A stretch of DNA of 64,000 nt from Pseudomonadota bacterium. GTDB lineage: Bacteria > Pseudomonadota > Alphaproteobacteria > Rhizobiales > MH13. This document shows, in pieces, positions 5,501 through 35,713 of the stretch; the first letter of the stretch is position 1; every line of letters starts with the position of its first letter. The stretch lies in contig JBCCAF010000004.1 in NCBI GenBank assembly GCA_039814945.1, positions 258,380 to 322,379 of the forward strand. The letters run 5' to 3'. Under the pieces are notes generated by a model. The model was not told the DNA's origin and made no database searches. It saw only the letters and a program-made list of their open reading frames with translations. A program made the translations under genes and the position numbers.

Positions 5501-6192
5501 TGGTTCCAGAAGCCAAACTCAATGGCGAGATAGGCTAGCACCGCCCAGGCCACGCCTGCCACAGCAGGGAACATGGCGGAGCGTTTGACGATGAAAAGGA
5601 TTGTCAGGAACAGCGCAAGCAGACCAGCGATGCCAAGGACGATGCCCTTGTAAAGCGTGGTGGCGTTGACGCTGTCGCGATAGGCATCATCCTCCCAGAG
5701 AATAAGCTGCGGCAGGCCCGGCGTGCGTAGTTCGACAACGTAGGTAACAACGGCGCCAGGATCGAGCGTGATGCGGAAAACATCGGCCTCCTGGCTTTCC
5801 AATCGCTCTGGCGCAAGGCCTTGGCTGGGCGAAATGGCCACCAAACGCGAGGCGCCAAGATCCGGCCAGATGATCTGGCTGTTGGCAAGCCGGAAGTGCG
5901 GCGCAACCAAAAGGCGGTCGATCTGTTCGTTGGACGTGTTTGTGAGCGCAAAGACGATCCAGCTTCCATTGCCATCGCCTTCGCGTGCCCGCACCTCAAT
6001 GCGGCGCACAATGCCATCAAGGCCCGGGGCCGTAGAAACCTGAATGCGGTCACCGACATCTACAAAGCGGTCGACAGCGCGGGTTAGATCCAGGGCCTCG
6101 ACATCCAGCGGCACATTGATCGCATCAAGGGCAGCGGCCGGTGTCGTGACCAGGCAAATGAGGCTCAATAAAAGGGCATGCAGCAGGCGCAA
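2560..6192 (-). CDS. Membrane sensor c-di-GMP phosphodiesterase (periplasmic sensor + multi-TM + PAS + degenerate GGDEF + EAL) with disordered C-terminal tail
   Basis: Signal-like N-terminus after TTG start, about 7 hydrophobic segments, PAS-like WDWD..., SGDQF at the GGDEF position, EALLRW and DDFGTGYSSL EAL motifs. Confidence 0.92.
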   Translation of the reverse strand: MRLLHALLLSLICLVTTPAAALDAINVPLDVEALDLTRAVDRFVDVGDRIQVSTAPGLDGIVRRIEVRAREGDGNGSWIVFALTNTSNEQIDRLLVAPHFRLANSQIIWPDLGASRLVAISPSQGLAPERLESQEADVFRITLDPGAVVTYVVELRTPGLPQLILWEDDAYRDSVNATTLYKGIVLGIAGLLALFLTILFIVKRSAMFPAVAGVAWAVLAYLAIEFGFWNQIFDLQPGDEQVSRAIAEVVLAAALVLLIYAYLSLGAVHNVFFRIGLVWAAFFSSLIGLAVFDPQIASGIARMGLGVIGIGGLLVIVPMSLQGYDRAVHLIPSWTVFMAWLLAAWLAVSGYIVNDLVSPALAGGLVLLVLLLGFTVMQHAFAGGTLAEGLVSDSERKVLALSGSGDLVWDWDLAKDRVYSSPATEDILGLKRGSLAGPFQDWISAIHPGERDHFRHVVETVVATGRGRIDQTLRMRAEDGHFKWFRLRARPVVADEGVFRLIGTMLDVTEMKTTQERLLRDAIHDSLTGLPNRELFLDRTQTALERARAEEIARPTLVVVNIDHFSQHNDAVGTSAADSLLTMVARRIDRLLKPNDTLARFSGDQFGILLLSEQKPASVARLTEQIRRALKTPVVFGDDEVNLTVSIGVATYDPNADGAEDCLRDAEIAMAHAKRLGGDRCEAFRPSLREHGRSIAAVEADLRKALDNDELTVFYQPIIRLEDRKLAGFEALLRWDHPRHGRMAPAEFVPIAERSGLIIPVGLFVLERAARDLNRWMRNDPNAAGLFTSVNISSRQLLRHDLLNDLRAILARADLPGSALKLELTESLVMENPEYASQVLARCRELGIGLSLDDFGTGYSSLAYLQRFPFDTIKIDQSFVTDMVPGEPAVVLAAIVALGHDLEMDIVAEGIESEEVAVELAKLGCEYGQGFQFGHPIPASGVPTFLRSFGQEIALKEQASAIAVAEQPAIAAPEPASPPPSVSAQPPARPAQPAATEASPSPPPQPAARPERPRARPAATPSAARAASSTKGSDRVEKPTIKPAEPLRTKKASEQPKEDEAVVIEHDANETGADEKSAVTKDGDQDASKDSIKDKPTKDPADAPSRANSATASKSSASKDEDATDTKTEPKADEEKKPLGRPRPSALDRYRSGSGRDPIGTPKPLLPAWQSAGTNGAASKDKDTASNSDDAEPTASDTSTKTARREATAK

Positions 6193-33032: not shown

Positions 33033-34931
33033 ATGCTAGAAATTTCCAATCTCACCTATCGGCTGGGCGACCGGCTTTTGTTCGATGGCGCGTCAGCGAC
33101 CATCCAGCGCGGCGCAAAGGTCGGCTTTGTTGGTCGCAACGGGTCGGGCAAGACAACGCTGTTTAAGCTGATCCGCGGCGAAATCGCGCCAGAGAGCGGC
33201 GAAATTCGCTTGCCGTCGCGCATGCGCCTTGGTGGTGTGGACCAGGAAGTGCCTGCCGGACCGCAGGCGCTGCTGGAGATCGTGCTTGCTGCTGATACCG
33301 AGCGTGCCTCGCTTTTGGCCGAGGCTGAAACCGCGAGCGACCCGACGCGCATCAGCGACATCCAGCTTCGGTTGGCCGATATCGATGCGCATTCGGCAGA
33401 ATCACGTGCTGCGCGTATTCTCCAAGGCTTGGGCTTTGACCATGTGGCGCAGCAACGTCCAGCCTCGGATTTCTCCGGCGGTTGGCGCATGCGCGTGGCA
33501 CTGGCGGCGGTGCTCTTTTCGGCGCCAGACCTTTTGTTGCTCGATGAGCCGACCAACTATCTGGATCTTGAAGGCGCGCTTTGGCTGGAGAGCTATCTGG
33601 CCAAATACCCCTACACGTTGATGGTGATTTCCCATGACCGCGACTTGCTCAACAGTGCTGTGAACCAAACGCTGCACTTGGATCAGCGTCGGTTGCAACT
33701 GTATGGCGGCGCTTTCGATACGTTCGATAAGCAGCGGCGCATTCAGCTTGCCGTTGAAGAGAAGGCACAGGCCAAGCAGGCCGCGCGTCGCGCGCACATG
33801 CAATCGTTTGTGGACCGGTTTAAAGCCAAGGCCTCCAAAGCCAAGCAGGCGCAAAGCCGCGTGAAAATGCTGGAAAAGATGGAGCCAATGGCGCTGCGCC
33901 AAGATGAGCGCGTGGCTCCGTTTCATTTCCAAGGGCCGGAAAAACCCAAAGCACCGCCGCTCATCAATGGGCGTGATTTGGCGGTTGGATATGAAGACGA
34001 CAAAGCCATTCTCTCACGCATGACGTTCCGCATCGATCCGGATGATCGCATCGCGCTGCTCGGGCAAAACGGCAACGGTAAGTCGACCTTCGCCAAGATG
34101 ATTGCTGGACGTCTCACCCGGCAAGCCGGTGACCTGACGTTTCCGGGCAAGATGAAGGTGGCGTTTTTTACGCAACACCAGCTTGATGATCTCAACCCCA
34201 AAGAGTCGCCCGTCGATACCGTGCGCAAACGCATGCCGGAAGCTGGCGAAGCCAAAGTGCGCGGCAAAGCTGCCCAAATGGGTTTCGATCGGCTGCGCAT
34301 GGATACGCCTGCTGGTCAGCTTTCCGGTGGCGAACGCGCCAGGCTTCTGCTGGGTTTGATCACGTTTGATGGCTCAGACATTCTGATCCTCGATGAGCCA
34401 ACCAACCACCTTGATATGGAAAGCCGCGAGGCGCTGGTTGAAGCTCTATCGCAGTATGATGGTGCGGTGATCATCATCTCGCATGACCGTCACCTGATAG
34501 AGGCCACAGCTGACCGGCTGTGGGTGGTCGGCGATGGCACTGTGAAGCCATACGAGGATGATCTTTCGGCCTATCGCACAGCTATTCTGCGCGGCGTTGA
34601 TGGCGGCAAGCAGAAAGCGGGCAAAACGTCCGGCAAGGTGAAGAAAGCTGCTCCCAAGGCAGAACCAGCGACGGCGAAACCCGCTCGATCAGGCAATGTA
34701 TCACTGCTCAAAAAGCAGGTGGCGGAGGCCGATAGTCGCTTGAAAACGATCCGCGCTGAGTTGGCCAAGATCGATAAGGATCTGGCCAACCCGAAGCTTT
34801 ATGCAATGAACCCGCAAAAAGGCGCCAAACTCTCCGCCCGACGTGCCAAAGGCGCCGAAGCGCTCGACAGTTGGGAAGCACGCTGGTTGGATCTCAATGC
34901 GGCTTTGGAAGAAGCTGGTGAGAGCGTTTAG
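33033..34931 (+). CDS. ABC-F family ribosome-associated ATPase
   Basis: Two ABC domains (GRNGSGKTT / FSGGWRMR / LLDEPTNYLD; GQNGNGKST / LSGGERAR / ILDEPTNHLD), helical linker, C-terminal coiled coil, no TM. Confidence 0.95.
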   Translation: MLEISNLTYRLGDRLLFDGASATIQRGAKVGFVGRNGSGKTTLFKLIRGEIAPESGEIRLPSRMRLGGVDQEVPAGPQALLEIVLAADTERASLLAEAETASDPTRISDIQLRLADIDAHSAESRAARILQGLGFDHVAQQRPASDFSGGWRMRVALAAVLFSAPDLLLLDEPTNYLDLEGALWLESYLAKYPYTLMVISHDRDLLNSAVNQTLHLDQRRLQLYGGAFDTFDKQRRIQLAVEEKAQAKQAARRAHMQSFVDRFKAKASKAKQAQSRVKMLEKMEPMALRQDERVAPFHFQGPEKPKAPPLINGRDLAVGYEDDKAILSRMTFRIDPDDRIALLGQNGNGKSTFAKMIAGRLTRQAGDLTFPGKMKVAFFTQHQLDDLNPKESPVDTVRKRMPEAGEAKVRGKAAQMGFDRLRMDTPAGQLSGGERARLLLGLITFDGSDILILDEPTNHLDMESREALVEALSQYDGAVIIISHDRHLIEATADRLWVVGDGTVKPYEDDLSAYRTAILRGVDGGKQKAGKTSGKVKKAAPKAEPATAKPARSGNVSLLKKQVAEADSRLKTIRAELAKIDKDLANPKLYAMNPQKGAKLSARRAKGAEALDSWEARWLDLNAALEEAGESV

Positions 34932-35134
34932 CTCTTTTCCGGCGGAACGATCAAAAAGGCTTACTTGGCTCTGTTCCTTCGGAACAACCAAGGGCTTTCT
35001 TGGCTCTGTTCCTACGGAACGACCAAAGGCTTACTTGGCTCCGTTCCTTCAGAACAACCAAAGGTTTACTTGGCTCTGTTCCTTCGGAACAACCAAAGGT
35101 TTACTTGGCTCTGTTCCTTCGGAACAACCGCTAG
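34930..35134. repeat. Tandem array of 35-bp imperfect hairpin units (about 5.7 copies), no unique spacers
   Basis: Units start at 34967, 35002, 35037, 35072 and 35107 (partial); consensus GGCTCTGTTCCTTCGGAACAACCAAAGG(C/T)TTACTT; degenerate 37-nt copy at 34930-34966. Confidence 0.97.
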
Positions 35135-35713
35135 TTACCGAAAACCGATAAACTCCACATAGTCTTGCAGCACAGTTTCCCACCACACCAAATCATCGCG
35201 GAACGTTTCCAACGCAACACCGTGGCGGGTGTTTATGGCGATCTGGATCACTGCATCGCCATCATCACGGATATAGGCTTTGCCAAAACGGCGCGTGGAA
35301 TTCCACTCGTTCATCAAGGCGACCGTTAGGCCTTCCATCTCAAAGGATGCGGTGAAAGAGAGATCGGCGCAATCTGGCTCGCAATTGTAAACATCGACAG
35401 CGAAGTTGATGCCATCAAGCGTCGCAGCGATGTATTGCTCGCCATTGCCATCGCGATCCAGCCGCGCCGTGCCAACCTCAGCAATCAGCGGGCAAATCTC
35501 AGAGATGTTGGCAAAGACCAGCCCGGATGGCGCCGATCCGCTGCATGACGTTGCCGGGGCCGCGGTTGGGGCTTTTTGCGCAACAGGCGCCGCCTCGGAT
35601 GGCTTTTCGTCGGATATCGGCGCCGCAGCGCCAACGCTTGCCGGCAAGAGACACGCACACGCTATCCCTGTTGCTGCGATTGCCTGCTGAAACGTGCGCA
35701 ATGGTTTTGCCAT
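35135..35713 (-). CDS. YbjN-domain protein with N-terminal signal peptide
   Basis: Signal-like N-terminus; DGINFAVDVYNC...CADLSFTASF...MNEWNSTRRFGKAYIRDDGDAV. Confidence 0.8.
   Translation of the reverse strand: MAKPLRTFQQAIAATGIACACLLPASVGAAAPISDEKPSEAAPVAQKAPTAAPATSCSGSAPSGLVFANISEICPLIAEVGTARLDRDGNGEQYIAATLDGINFAVDVYNCEPDCADLSFTASFEMEGLTVALMNEWNSTRRFGKAYIRDDGDAVIQIAINTRHGVALETFRDDLVWWETVLQDYVEFIGFR

What the first reader, a model, noticed from the sequence alone, without database searches (positions are those of the whole stretch)
34930..35134. Spacer-less tandem array of 35-nt hairpin units filling the ABC-F / YbjN convergent gap: candidate repeat-encoded RNA or DNA element
Seen: copies start at 34967, 35002, 35037, 35072 and 35107 (the last is cut after ...GGAACAACC), with an exact 35-bp period and consensus GGCTCTGTTCCTTCGGAACAACCAAAGGYTTACTT. 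A decayed 37-nt copy lies at 34930-34966. The array runs from the ABC-F stop (TAG 34929-34931) to the YbjN stop (35135), so the whole intergenic space is repeat. The period is not a multiple of 3, so it is non-coding. The 12-nt linkers are near-identical, so it is not CRISPR. Each unit folds as TGTTCC-TTC-GGAACA, extended by (C)TTGG/CCAA(G) pairing across the unit junction into a ~30-nt hairpin. The copies near YbjN are the most homogeneous and those near ABC-F the most diverged, suggesting polar expansion. I found no other copy by eye in the window. Established: type III antitoxin RNAs (ToxI, AbiQ antitoxin) are arrays of a few ~35-36-nt tandem units processed to monomers, and REP/BIME elements are intergenic palindromes. 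Inference: this could be (i) an orphan repeat RNA processed into 35-nt monomers or acting as a multivalent protein sponge from the 3' UTR of either gene, (ii) a REP-like cluster, or (iii) an amplified bidirectional terminator or RNA-stability element (VNTR). No toxin, cas or HUH transposase gene is adjacent.
Basis: partly seen in the sequence, partly recalled or inferred. Interest (0 to 1): 0.82.

Follow-up and report, generated by a model that had tools for sequence, protein, structure and literature searches.

The report
Amplified conserved hairpin between convergent genes
The 200-bp gap between two convergent housekeeping genes is filled by five head-to-tail copies of a 35-bp hairpin unit: an old, sequence-conserved REP-like stem-loop that varies from 0 to 5 copies among relatives and most likely acts as a two-way mRNA 3'-end barrier or terminator rather than a new kind of RNA gene.

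Summary
There are five 35-bp units plus a decayed sixth, with an exact period. They fill the 203-nt gap between the ABC-F and YbjN stop codons and occur nowhere else in the 64-kb window.

The array is not a new insertion. The same hairpin (GGCTCYGTTCC-NNN-GGAACRACC) sits in this gap in every relative examined back to a lineage whose four-fold synonymous sites are only 49% identical to the window. Copy numbers there are 3 (irregular spacing), 2, 1, 3 and 5. One inner clade has lost it by a clean deletion between the two TTAG stop contexts. More distant relatives never had it.

Hairpin cores are 21-23 of 23 identical across that depth, and the basal stem pair covaries (U-A with C-G). Loops and linkers drift.

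The same hairpin occurs at unrelated intergenic sites in other Hyphomicrobiales: upstream of rpsO (again as a 35-nt-period array), near tuf and tRNA genes, after gyrB, and beside an IS110-like gene.

Best reading: a REP-like stem-loop locally amplified into a VNTR, probably a bidirectional 3'-end stabiliser or terminator. ToxI-like, CRISPR and canonical intrinsic-terminator readings fail. REP membership is unproven. Interest is modest.

The parts
33033..34931 (+). ABC-F ATPase gene (YheS-like), converging on the array; stop TAG at 34929-34931
   Evidence: ORF list. Pfam ABC_tran x2, ABC_tran_Xtn and ABC_tran_CTD. NCBIfam ribo_prot_ABC_F above its cut-off; PRK10636 scores 527 bits, below its cut-off.
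34930..34966 (.). Decayed unit u0 (37 nt), with weakened stem TTTTCC/GGAACG; also present in relative L018, so older than the window/L018 split
   Evidence: 29 of 35 matches plus a 2-nt insertion against the consensus. The same left end, CTCTTTTCCGGCGGAAC, is seen in L018.
34967..35001 (.). Unit u1 (23-nt hairpin core plus 12-nt linker)
   Evidence: 0 mismatches; covariance model 52.3 bits.
35002..35036 (.). Unit u2; its core GGCTCTGTTCCTACGGAACGACC is identical to a unit in distant relative L031
   Evidence: 23 of 23 identical to L031 unit b.
35037..35071 (.). Unit u3; its two substitutions are C-A mismatches on the + strand and G-U wobbles on the - strand
35072..35106 (.). Unit u4
   Evidence: 51.5 bits.
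35107..35134 (.). Terminal unit u5 (core 35107-35129) plus the conserved flank GCTAG (35130-35134). The same end, GGAACAACCGCTAGTTA, is shared with L018, L019, L001 and L029. The core ends 5 nt from the YbjN stop.
   Evidence: The flank CCGCTAG also follows single copies in L025.
34932..35134 (.). Whole intergenic gap, equal to the array (6 units); the shared 3' region of two convergent genes
35135..35713 (-). YbjN-domain protein gene, converging on the array; stop TAA (TTA at 35135-35137)
   Evidence: ORF list; Pfam YbjN; no defence-system match.

Best explanation
The array is a locus-resident cluster of a REP-like stem-loop. Its core is GG-CTC-YGTTCC-loop-GGAACR-A-CC, often followed by GCTAG. 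It lies in the shared 3' region of the convergent ABC-F and ybjN genes. The hairpin entered this gap in the ancestor of a clade of marine Hyphomicrobiales and has been kept since. In the window's lineage a 35-bp module (23-nt hairpin plus 12-nt linker) was multiplied head-to-tail to 5 copies plus 1 decayed copy, presumably by slipped-strand mispairing or unequal recombination (inferred). That makes the locus a copy-number-variable minisatellite. How it most likely works (inferred by analogy with E. coli REP elements, not shown here): the array is transcribed as the 3' end of one or both convergent mRNAs. The stem-loops would then block 3'-to-5' exonucleases and impede read-through into the antisense of the facing gene, insulating the two genes. 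Extra copies would add redundancy or dose but are not essential. Shown: the anatomy, the ancestry, the copy-number variation, the conservation and covariation of the hairpin, and its presence at other loci in other genomes. Inferred: the amplification mechanism, transcription in this organism and the stabiliser/terminator role.
For: The array and its fold are real. Orthologous gaps show 3 units in L031 (irregular spacing), 2 in L029/L030, 1 in L021, 3 in L018 and 5+1 in the window. L009, L017 and L020 have none: their stops overlap as GTTTAGCGG, as expected from a deletion between the two TTAG stop contexts. Outgroups L032, L034, L035 and L036 have 11-97-nt gaps without the hairpin. The neighbour-joining tree of the flanking genes places the empty clade inside the hairpin-bearing clade. 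Four-fold degenerate sites of ABC-F are 49-50% identical between the window and L031/L029, yet hairpin cores are 21-23 of 23 identical. The inner helix is 93% paired over 22 distinct units. The basal pair occurs as U-A (9), C-G (6) and U-G (2), and a second pair changes from U-A to G-C. The covariation score beat all 500 shuffles and all slid controls. Loops (TTC, TAC, GAC, TGT, TTGA) and linkers are free to vary. The same hairpin lies in intergenic DNA elsewhere: L008 upstream of rpsO as a 3-unit array also of period 35, L025 upstream of tuf and between tRNA-Tyr and tRNA-Gly, L026 15 nt after the gyrB stop, and L023 next to an IS110-like gene. RNA-seq-derived contigs from a ~92% relative contain the array at depths similar to neighbouring genes. 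In E. coli, REPs between convergent genes correlate with higher expression of both genes, act as partial terminators and decay blocks, usually lack a U tract, and carry a conserved mismatched bulge (bioRxiv 10.64898/2026.03.23.713779).
Against: There is no direct evidence for RNA 3' ends or stabilisation here. The RNA-seq evidence consists of unstranded assembled contigs from a relative and could be DNA carry-over; the array is not enriched over its flanks. The hairpins are modest (-9 to -11 kcal/mol) and lack a U tract, so they are not canonical intrinsic terminators. One clade lost the whole element and fused the stop codons without damage to either gene, so any function is dispensable. Conservation of the stem sequence itself, not only of pairing, is more than a simple exonuclease barrier needs. 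It hints at sequence-specific recognition or homogenisation by a wider family.
Confidence: 0.6

Rival explanations
1. The array is a true REP/BIME-type mobile family. The hairpin would be one of many dispersed copies maintained and spread by a RAYT (Y1/HUH) transposase, and the array would be a BIME-like cluster.
For: The same 23-28-nt hairpin with the same flank (CTAGCGG on the opposite strand) is found at unrelated intergenic loci in other Hyphomicrobiales genomes, including 2-3 copies within 7 kb of L025. L008 has a second array with the same 35-nt period but neighbouring units of different stem type, which looks like a mosaic rather than fresh slippage. One copy abuts an IS110-like transposase; from memory, IS110/IS1111 elements often target REPs. 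Sequence-level conservation across saturated divergence fits a family that is continually homogenised.
Against: The remaining 63.8 kb of the window holds no other copy, even with filters off, and no other repeat family. The relatives' loci carry it only at this site. All units are head-to-tail, not alternating as in BIMEs. Exact-pattern scans of 185,579 species genomes and of JGI metagenomes returned only 7 stretches each, mostly chance hits in coding DNA, although my genome pattern required ...CCAA and would miss single copies ending ...CCGC. No transposase is adjacent.
Confidence: 0.2
2. The array is a neutral VNTR: a functionless slippage-prone minisatellite in a tolerant gap.
For: Copy number runs from 0 to 5 among close relatives. 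The element was cleanly lost in one clade. Words of units 2-3 are missing from the only run that carries this strain, which suggests polymorphism among near-identical strains.
Against: Cores are 21-23 of 23 identical where four-fold sites are 49% identical. There are compensatory stem changes. The hairpin has been retained at the same site through the whole clade, and the same hairpin recurs at other loci in other genomes.
Confidence: 0.12
3. The array is a repeat-encoded RNA: it would be transcribed and cut into ~35-nt monomers (like the type III antitoxins ToxI and antiQ) or act as a multivalent protein sponge.
For: The unit size and number resemble ToxI (36 nt x 5.5; from memory). The array is present in RNA-seq-derived contigs. 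The stem sequence is conserved.
Against: No toxin gene is present. Both neighbours are conserved ABC-F and YbjN genes that converge on the array and keep this order in relatives with no array. No promoter-like site was found and Rfam gave no match. Linker sequence and even the period are not conserved in L031. Copy numbers of 0 and 1 are tolerated. The array is not enriched over its flanks in RNA contigs.
Confidence: 0.04
4. The array is a double-stranded DNA protein-binding site, with the palindrome TGTTCC-N3-GGAACA as an operator for a dimeric regulator or a nucleoid protein.
For: The stem sequence, not only its pairing, is conserved. The element lies near the promoters or leaders of rpsO and tuf in other genomes.
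Against: The two half-sites covary to keep pairing (U-A to C-G), which a dimeric dsDNA site does not require but also does not exclude. At this locus it sits between two 3' ends, far from any promoter. It does not fit the alphaproteobacterial LexA box (GTTC-N7-GTTC), EcfG promoter (GGAAC-N16-17-CGTT), NifA UAS (TGT-N10-ACA) or parS consensus, all recalled from memory and checked by eye only.
Confidence: 0.04

Closest known systems
REP / BIME elements of Enterobacteria and Pseudomonas (e.g. E. coli REP325, a 12-hairpin cluster)
   Same: A short imperfect palindrome with a conserved mismatched bulge. Strictly extragenic, mostly just after stop codons, and often between convergent genes. It lacks a U tract. 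It occurs singly or in clusters whose copy number differs between strains. Its sequence is conserved within a taxon. REP elements have been shown to act as a decay block and partial terminator.
   Different: The units here are all head-to-tail with a fixed 35-nt period, whereas BIMEs alternate orientation. No high-copy dispersion was seen (0 other copies in 64 kb) and no RAYT was seen. The stem is shorter and less G+C-rich.
MIRU-type VNTR / bacterial minisatellites
   Same: Head-to-tail intergenic units of tens of bp, copy-number polymorphism between close relatives, and occurrence at more than one locus type (the L008 array).
   Different: MIRUs are 40-100 bp, lie between co-directional genes of operons and carry short coupled ORFs. 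Here the unit is a hairpin, the genes are convergent, the period is not a multiple of 3, and the core is under clear constraint.
Type III toxin-antitoxin antitoxin RNAs (ToxI, antiQ, CptI)
   Same: Direct tandem repeats of about 35-36 nt, a few copies, with no spacers.
   Different: There is no adjacent endoribonuclease toxin gene, no promoter-plus-terminator layout, the array lies between two 3' ends, and the period and linkers are not conserved in relatives.
Bidirectional intrinsic terminators between convergent genes
   Same: The same position, a palindromic stem-loop usable on both strands, and the expected insulating effect.
   Different: No U or A tracts flank the stem. The stem sequence is conserved across loci and genomes, which ordinary terminators are not.

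Membership tests
REP/BIME | Short (20-40 nt) imperfect palindrome confined to extragenic DNA | tested here: met
   A 23-nt core with a 6-bp stem, a 3x1 internal loop and a GG/CC clamp. All convincing copies are intergenic.
REP/BIME | Many dispersed copies per genome | tested here: inconclusive
   There are 0 other copies in the window's remaining 63.8 kb. This excludes only families above roughly 190 loci in a genome of about 4 Mb (the genome size is assumed, not measured). Another genome (L025) has 2-3 copies in 7 kb.
REP/BIME | Clusters built of units in alternating orientation with defined linkers | tested here: not met
   All units in the window, L018, L029, L031 and L008 are in the same orientation.
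REP/BIME | Cognate RAYT (Y1/HUH) transposase in the genome | not testable with these tools
   Only 64 kb of the genome is available, and the adjacent genes are housekeeping.
Type III TA antitoxin RNA (ToxI-like) | Tandem direct repeats of about 34-36 nt | tested here: met
   Period 35, 5.0 copies.
Type III TA antitoxin RNA (ToxI-like) | Array immediately upstream of, and co-directional with, a ToxN/AbiQ/CptN/TenpN endoribonuclease gene | tested here: not met
   The neighbours are ABC-F and YbjN, both converging on the array. YbjN has no PADLOC hit, and the ABC-F hits are generic ABC ATPase similarity. The same gene pair exists without the array in relatives.
Type III TA antitoxin RNA (ToxI-like) | Own promoter upstream of the repeats | tested here: not met
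   There are 0 promoter-like sites in 34500-35600 on either strand. This was a sigma-70 consensus scan only.
CRISPR array | Repeats separated by unique spacers of similar length | tested here: not met
   The 12-nt linkers are near-identical between units, and no cas gene is adjacent.
VNTR / minisatellite | Head-to-tail units of 10-100 bp | tested here: met
VNTR / minisatellite | Copy number differs between related genomes at the same locus | tested here: met
   0, 1, 2, 3, 3 and 5(+1) units at the orthologous gap.
Intrinsic (Rho-independent) terminator | G+C-rich stem followed by a U tract | tested here: not met
   The terminator scan finds none in the gap on either strand. The tails are AACCAAAGG on the + strand and GAGCCAAGU on the - strand.
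Any Rfam family | Covariance-model match | tested here: not met
   No match at gathering score in the window. Only chance-level hits (E 3.8-8.1) appear in 34600-35500.

The most novel reading that the evidence does not exclude
The 23-28-nt hairpin would be a sequence-specific recognition element for an as yet unknown Hyphomicrobiales factor that binds RNA or single-stranded DNA. This would explain why the stem sequence, the 3x1 internal loop and the GCTAG flank are conserved across saturated divergence, and why the hairpin recurs near translation-related genes (rpsO, tuf, tRNA-Tyr/Gly, an ABC-F). The 35-nt-period direct arrays, seen independently at two unrelated loci in two genomes, would then be multivalent platforms built by a dedicated copy-adding mechanism rather than by random slippage.
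Probability: 0.12. Interest if true: 0.6.

Novelty: new member of a known kind. Interest (0 to 1): 0.3.

Why it matters
The locus offers a natural allelic series of 0, 1, 2, 3 and 5 hairpins between the same convergent gene pair. That series could be used to test how stem-loop number tunes 3'-end formation, mRNA stability and transcriptional interference outside E. coli. The analysis also defines a previously undescribed conserved hairpin motif of marine Hyphomicrobiales: it has no Rfam match, and the core strings were not found in the paper library. On present evidence it does not open a new class of element.

Tried and rejected
- **Rfam:** gathering and permissive thresholds gave nothing.
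- **CRISPR:** rejected, because the linkers are near-identical.
- **ToxI-like antitoxin:** rejected on gene context.
- **Coding:** ORFs 34843-35151 and 34965-35162 (+) run through the array. I rejected them because the period is 35 and copy number varies, so no frame can be conserved.
- **Recent insertion with a target duplication:** I first favoured this when the 92% relatives showed overlapping stops. I rejected it after deeper relatives showed the hairpin at the same site and the tree put the empty clade inside them. The flanking TTAG repeats are simply the two stop contexts.
- **Strand of function from wobble pairs:** in the inner helix I counted by eye, from the alignment, about 7 C-A cells (G-U on the - strand) against 2 U-G cells. 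This is not significant and the units are not independent.
- **Known alphaproteobacterial DNA motifs:** LexA box, EcfG promoter, NifA UAS, parS and sigma-54, recalled from memory and checked by eye; none fits.
- **Genome-collection scan:** pattern CYGTTCCTWCRGAACRACCAA gave 7 stretches, of which only L008 is relevant. In hindsight the trailing CCAA made it blind to single copies ending CCGC.
- **Metagenome scan:** pattern GGTNGTNCCGAAGGNACNGAGCC gave 7 stretches, 3 of them non-coding and informative.
- **Viral scan:** 0 hits.
- **Plasmid collection:** no match.
- **RNA runs:** only assembled contigs from a relative, unstranded, with no enrichment.
- **Literature:** string searches for the core found no paper.
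Full report
**1. Checking the observation**

The sequence at 34932-35134 is a spacer-less head-to-tail array. Tandem Repeats Finder gives period 35, 5.0 copies, 90% matches and no indels, with score 294. No other array in the 64-kb window scores above 59.

The 23-nt core GGCTCTGTTCCTTCGGAACAACC matches at 34967, 35002, 35037, 35072 and 35107 with 0, 2, 2, 0 and 0 mismatches. None were found in 100 dinucleotide-preserving shuffles. Self-match is 91% at lag 35 and 15-37% at neighbouring lags. The stretch 34930-34966 is a decayed sixth unit, with 29 of 35 matches and a 2-nt insertion.

The flanking ORFs are an ABC-F ATPase (33033-34931, +) and a YbjN-domain protein (35135-35713, -). The array therefore fills the whole 203-nt gap between two convergent stop codons.

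A single unit folds into a 6-bp stem with a 3-nt loop. A 3x1 internal loop and a 4-bp outer stem extend it, at -9.3 kcal/mol on the + strand and -11.4 on the - strand. The whole array folds better than shuffles on both strands.

I built a covariance model from 13 units (R1) and ran it over the window with filters off. It finds the five units at 46-52 bits and nothing else above 12 bits. A general repeat search finds no other repeat family in the window.

**2. What the relatives show**

Its closest relatives come from marine, algal and protist metagenomes and are labelled Hyphomicrobiales, Devosiaceae or Cohaesibacteraceae.

I fetched the orthologous locus from relatives through their YbjN proteins. 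The gene order rsmA-pdxA-surA-lptD-lptG-lptF | pepA-holC-ybjN | ABC-F | GST-ndk is conserved throughout. The gap between ABC-F and ybjN differs as follows:

| Locus | Flank identity to window (nt) | Hairpin units | Notes |
|---|---|---|---|
| window | 100% | 5 + 1 decayed | period 35 |
| L018 | 92% | 3 | period 35; same left and right ends as the window |
| L021 | 90% | 1 | enclosed in an outer GGGCC/GGCCC stem |
| L009, L017, L020 | 90-91% | 0 | the two stops overlap (GTTTAGCGG) |
| L029, L030 | 81% | 2 | period 35; same right end GGAACAACCGCTAGTTA |
| L031 (CP121339.1) | 77% | 3 | irregular spacing of 36 and 46 nt |
| L032 | 73% | 0 | 11-nt gap, no hairpin |
| L034, L035, L036 | not computed (YbjN 62-66% aa identity) | 0 | 97-, 50- and 23-nt gaps, no hairpin |

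A neighbour-joining tree of ABC-F, ybjN and holC gives L032,(L031,(L029,(L021,(L009,(L017,L020)),(window,L018)))). The hairpin therefore arrived once, in the ancestor of the L031-to-window clade, and the empty state is a later loss.

That loss is exactly what a deletion between the two TTAG tetranucleotides would give. One is the "T TAG" end of ABC-F and the other is the "TTA G" end of ybjN. Both flank the cluster in L029, and they flank the 11-nt spacer in the outgroup L032. Such a deletion leaves both proteins intact.

My first idea was a recent insertion with a target duplication, formed. It was wrong.

**3. Evidence for constraint**

Between the window and L031 or L029, four-fold degenerate sites of ABC-F are only 49-50% identical. 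The 23-nt hairpin cores are 21-23 of 23 identical; window unit 2 equals L031 unit b at all 23 positions.

I aligned 23 units (22 distinct) from the window, the relatives and other genomes to the model. The inner helix is 93% paired. Its basal pair occurs as U-A (9), C-G (6) and U-G (2), and a second pair changes from U-A to G-C in two units. The covariation score exceeded all 500 column shuffles and all slid-partner controls.

The caveats are that the alignment was fitted to the model and that units within one array are not independent. The outer helix is weak apart from the GG/CC clamp.

Loops (TTC, TAC, GAC, TGT, TTGA) and linkers vary freely. The hairpin, including much of its stem sequence and the CTC/A internal loop, is therefore maintained. 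The 35-nt repeat as such is not: period and linker are lineage-specific.

**4. The hairpin elsewhere**

An exact-pattern scan of one genome per species (185,579 species) gave 7 stretches, 6 of which look like chance hits. The seventh, L008, is a Hyphomicrobiales MAG (OZ271835.1). It has three tandem units, again with a 35-nt period, between an unnamed ORF and rpsO. The neighbouring stems there are of different type (CGTGCC/GGCACG, TGTTCC/GGAACA, GTGCC/GGCAC), and the array ends ...ACCGCTTAA, like the window's ...ACCGCTAG.

A looser pattern on JGI metagenomes gave 7 stretches, of which 4 lie inside coding DNA and are probably chance. The three informative ones are:

- **L025:** one copy upstream of tuf, one between tRNA-Tyr and tRNA-Gly and one weak third copy. 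The first two carry the flank CTAGCGG.
- **L026:** a copy 15 nt after the gyrB stop.
- **L023:** a copy abutting a frame-shifted IS110-like transposase.

No copy was found in viral contigs or in the plasmid collection.

My genome pattern ended in CCAA, which only array-internal units have. It would have missed single copies ending CCGC, so the true spread of the family is under-sampled.

Within the window's own lineage I could examine only one 64-kb territory. Zero extra copies there excludes a family of more than roughly 190 loci (for an assumed genome of about 4 Mb), not a low-copy one.

**5. Transcription**

No RNA data exist for this strain. One DNA metagenome run carries the strain. Its contigs break inside the array, and the u4/u5 unitig has 1.9 times the flank depth, as the window's sequence predicts. 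Words of units 2-3 are missing, which may mean array polymorphism.

Several RNA-seq runs of three coded organisms contain a 65-nt cyclic unitig of the array from a relative about 92% identical. One 101-nt contig joins the ABC-F 3' end to the array with one unit fewer. Depths (3.6-5.5) are like those of neighbouring genes, so there is no sign of accumulation, and DNA carry-over cannot be excluded.

**6. Mechanism**

The position is between two 3' ends, abutting the ABC-F stop and ending 5 nt from the YbjN stop. The hairpins have a conserved bulge and lack a U tract. Copy number is variable, and the element can be lost. All of this parallels E. coli REP elements.

For E. coli REPs, a recent study reports partial Rho-dependent termination, protection of the upstream mRNA, ladder-like transcripts from a 12-hairpin REP, and higher expression of convergent gene pairs that carry a REP (bioRxiv 10.64898/2026.03.23.713779).

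I therefore commit to this model: the array is a bidirectional 3'-end element, acting as a decay block and read-through brake for both convergent mRNAs, and its unit was amplified by slippage or unequal exchange. The anatomy, ancestry and constraint are shown. The RNA-level role and the amplification mechanism are inferred.

The conservation of stem sequence, and the recurrence of the 35-nt period at an unrelated locus (L008), are not fully explained by this model. They keep two alternatives open: a REP/RAYT-type family, and a specific binding factor.

**7. Comparison with known systems and novelty**

It works like a REP/BIME cluster and behaves like a VNTR. It is not shown to be a REP family member. 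Dispersion is unproven, the units are direct rather than alternating, and a RAYT could not be sought.

It is not a CRISPR array, not a type III antitoxin array, not a canonical intrinsic terminator, and not any Rfam family. The core strings appear in no paper of the library.

I rate it a new member of a known kind: intergenic hairpin repeats with local tandem amplification.

**8. Verdict**

The element is real, old and constrained, but ordinary in kind. Interest is 0.3.

The most novel reading still open is a dedicated recognition hairpin with purpose-built 35-nt arrays. I give it a probability of about 0.12.

Noticed in passing
L008:1367-1470 (Hyphomicrobiales MAG OZ271835.1): A second tandem array of the same hairpin, also with a 35-nt period (3 units). 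It lies between an unnamed 195-aa ORF and rpsO and ends 73 nt upstream of the S15 start codon. Neighbouring units have different, mutually compensated stems. Recurrence of the 35-nt period at an unrelated locus is not explained by simple local slippage.
   Followed up: partly
L025:3382-3414, 5690-5722, 6019-6050 (Ga0189287_100030): Two to three single copies of the hairpin within 7 kb: upstream of tuf, between tRNA-Tyr and tRNA-Gly, and one weak copy. With rpsO (L008) and the ABC-F here, several contexts are translation-related. The sample is too small to judge.
   Followed up: partly
L025:5604-5680 and 5918-5995: A separate ~60-nt module (AGCCAATCGC..GATTGGCGGAAC.AGCGGCAGG..TTTGC..GCAAATGC) is repeated directly after both tRNA-Tyr and tRNA-Gly. 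It looks like a shared double stem-loop terminator or processing module.
   Followed up: no
L023:326-348: One hairpin copy lies about 25 nt upstream of the start of an IS110-like transposase (motif KTDRRDA) whose reading frame is broken by stops. The hairpin may be an insertion target or part of the element's non-coding end.
   Followed up: no
L026:1-220: The hairpin lies 15 nt after the gyrB stop. About 100 nt further on there is a second, partial hairpin preceded by a degenerate copy of the last ~50 nt of gyrB, so gene end and hairpin were duplicated together.
   Followed up: no
L009:4576-4579, L017 and L020 (orthologous to window 34928-35137): In one clade the ABC-F and ybjN reading frames overlap by 4 nt on opposite strands (TTAG: TAG on one strand, TTA = TAA on the other). 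The convergent genes then share no intergenic DNA and can have no terminator between them.
   Followed up: yes
window:34843-35151 and 34965-35162 (+): Two mechanical ORFs (102 and 65 aa) stay open through the whole array. With a 35-nt period and variable copy number they cannot be conserved and are taken as non-coding.
   Followed up: partly
window:35003-35064: In the only public run that carries this strain (X1, flanks 100% identical), no contig covers units 2-3 and only 47% of the array's sampled words are present.
   Followed up: partly
window:40200-41100: This is the stretch of the 20-kb neighbourhood best covered by RNA-seq-derived contigs of a relative in runs X23 and X25 (depth 4-7), so it is probably a well-expressed gene. 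I did not identify it.
   Followed up: no
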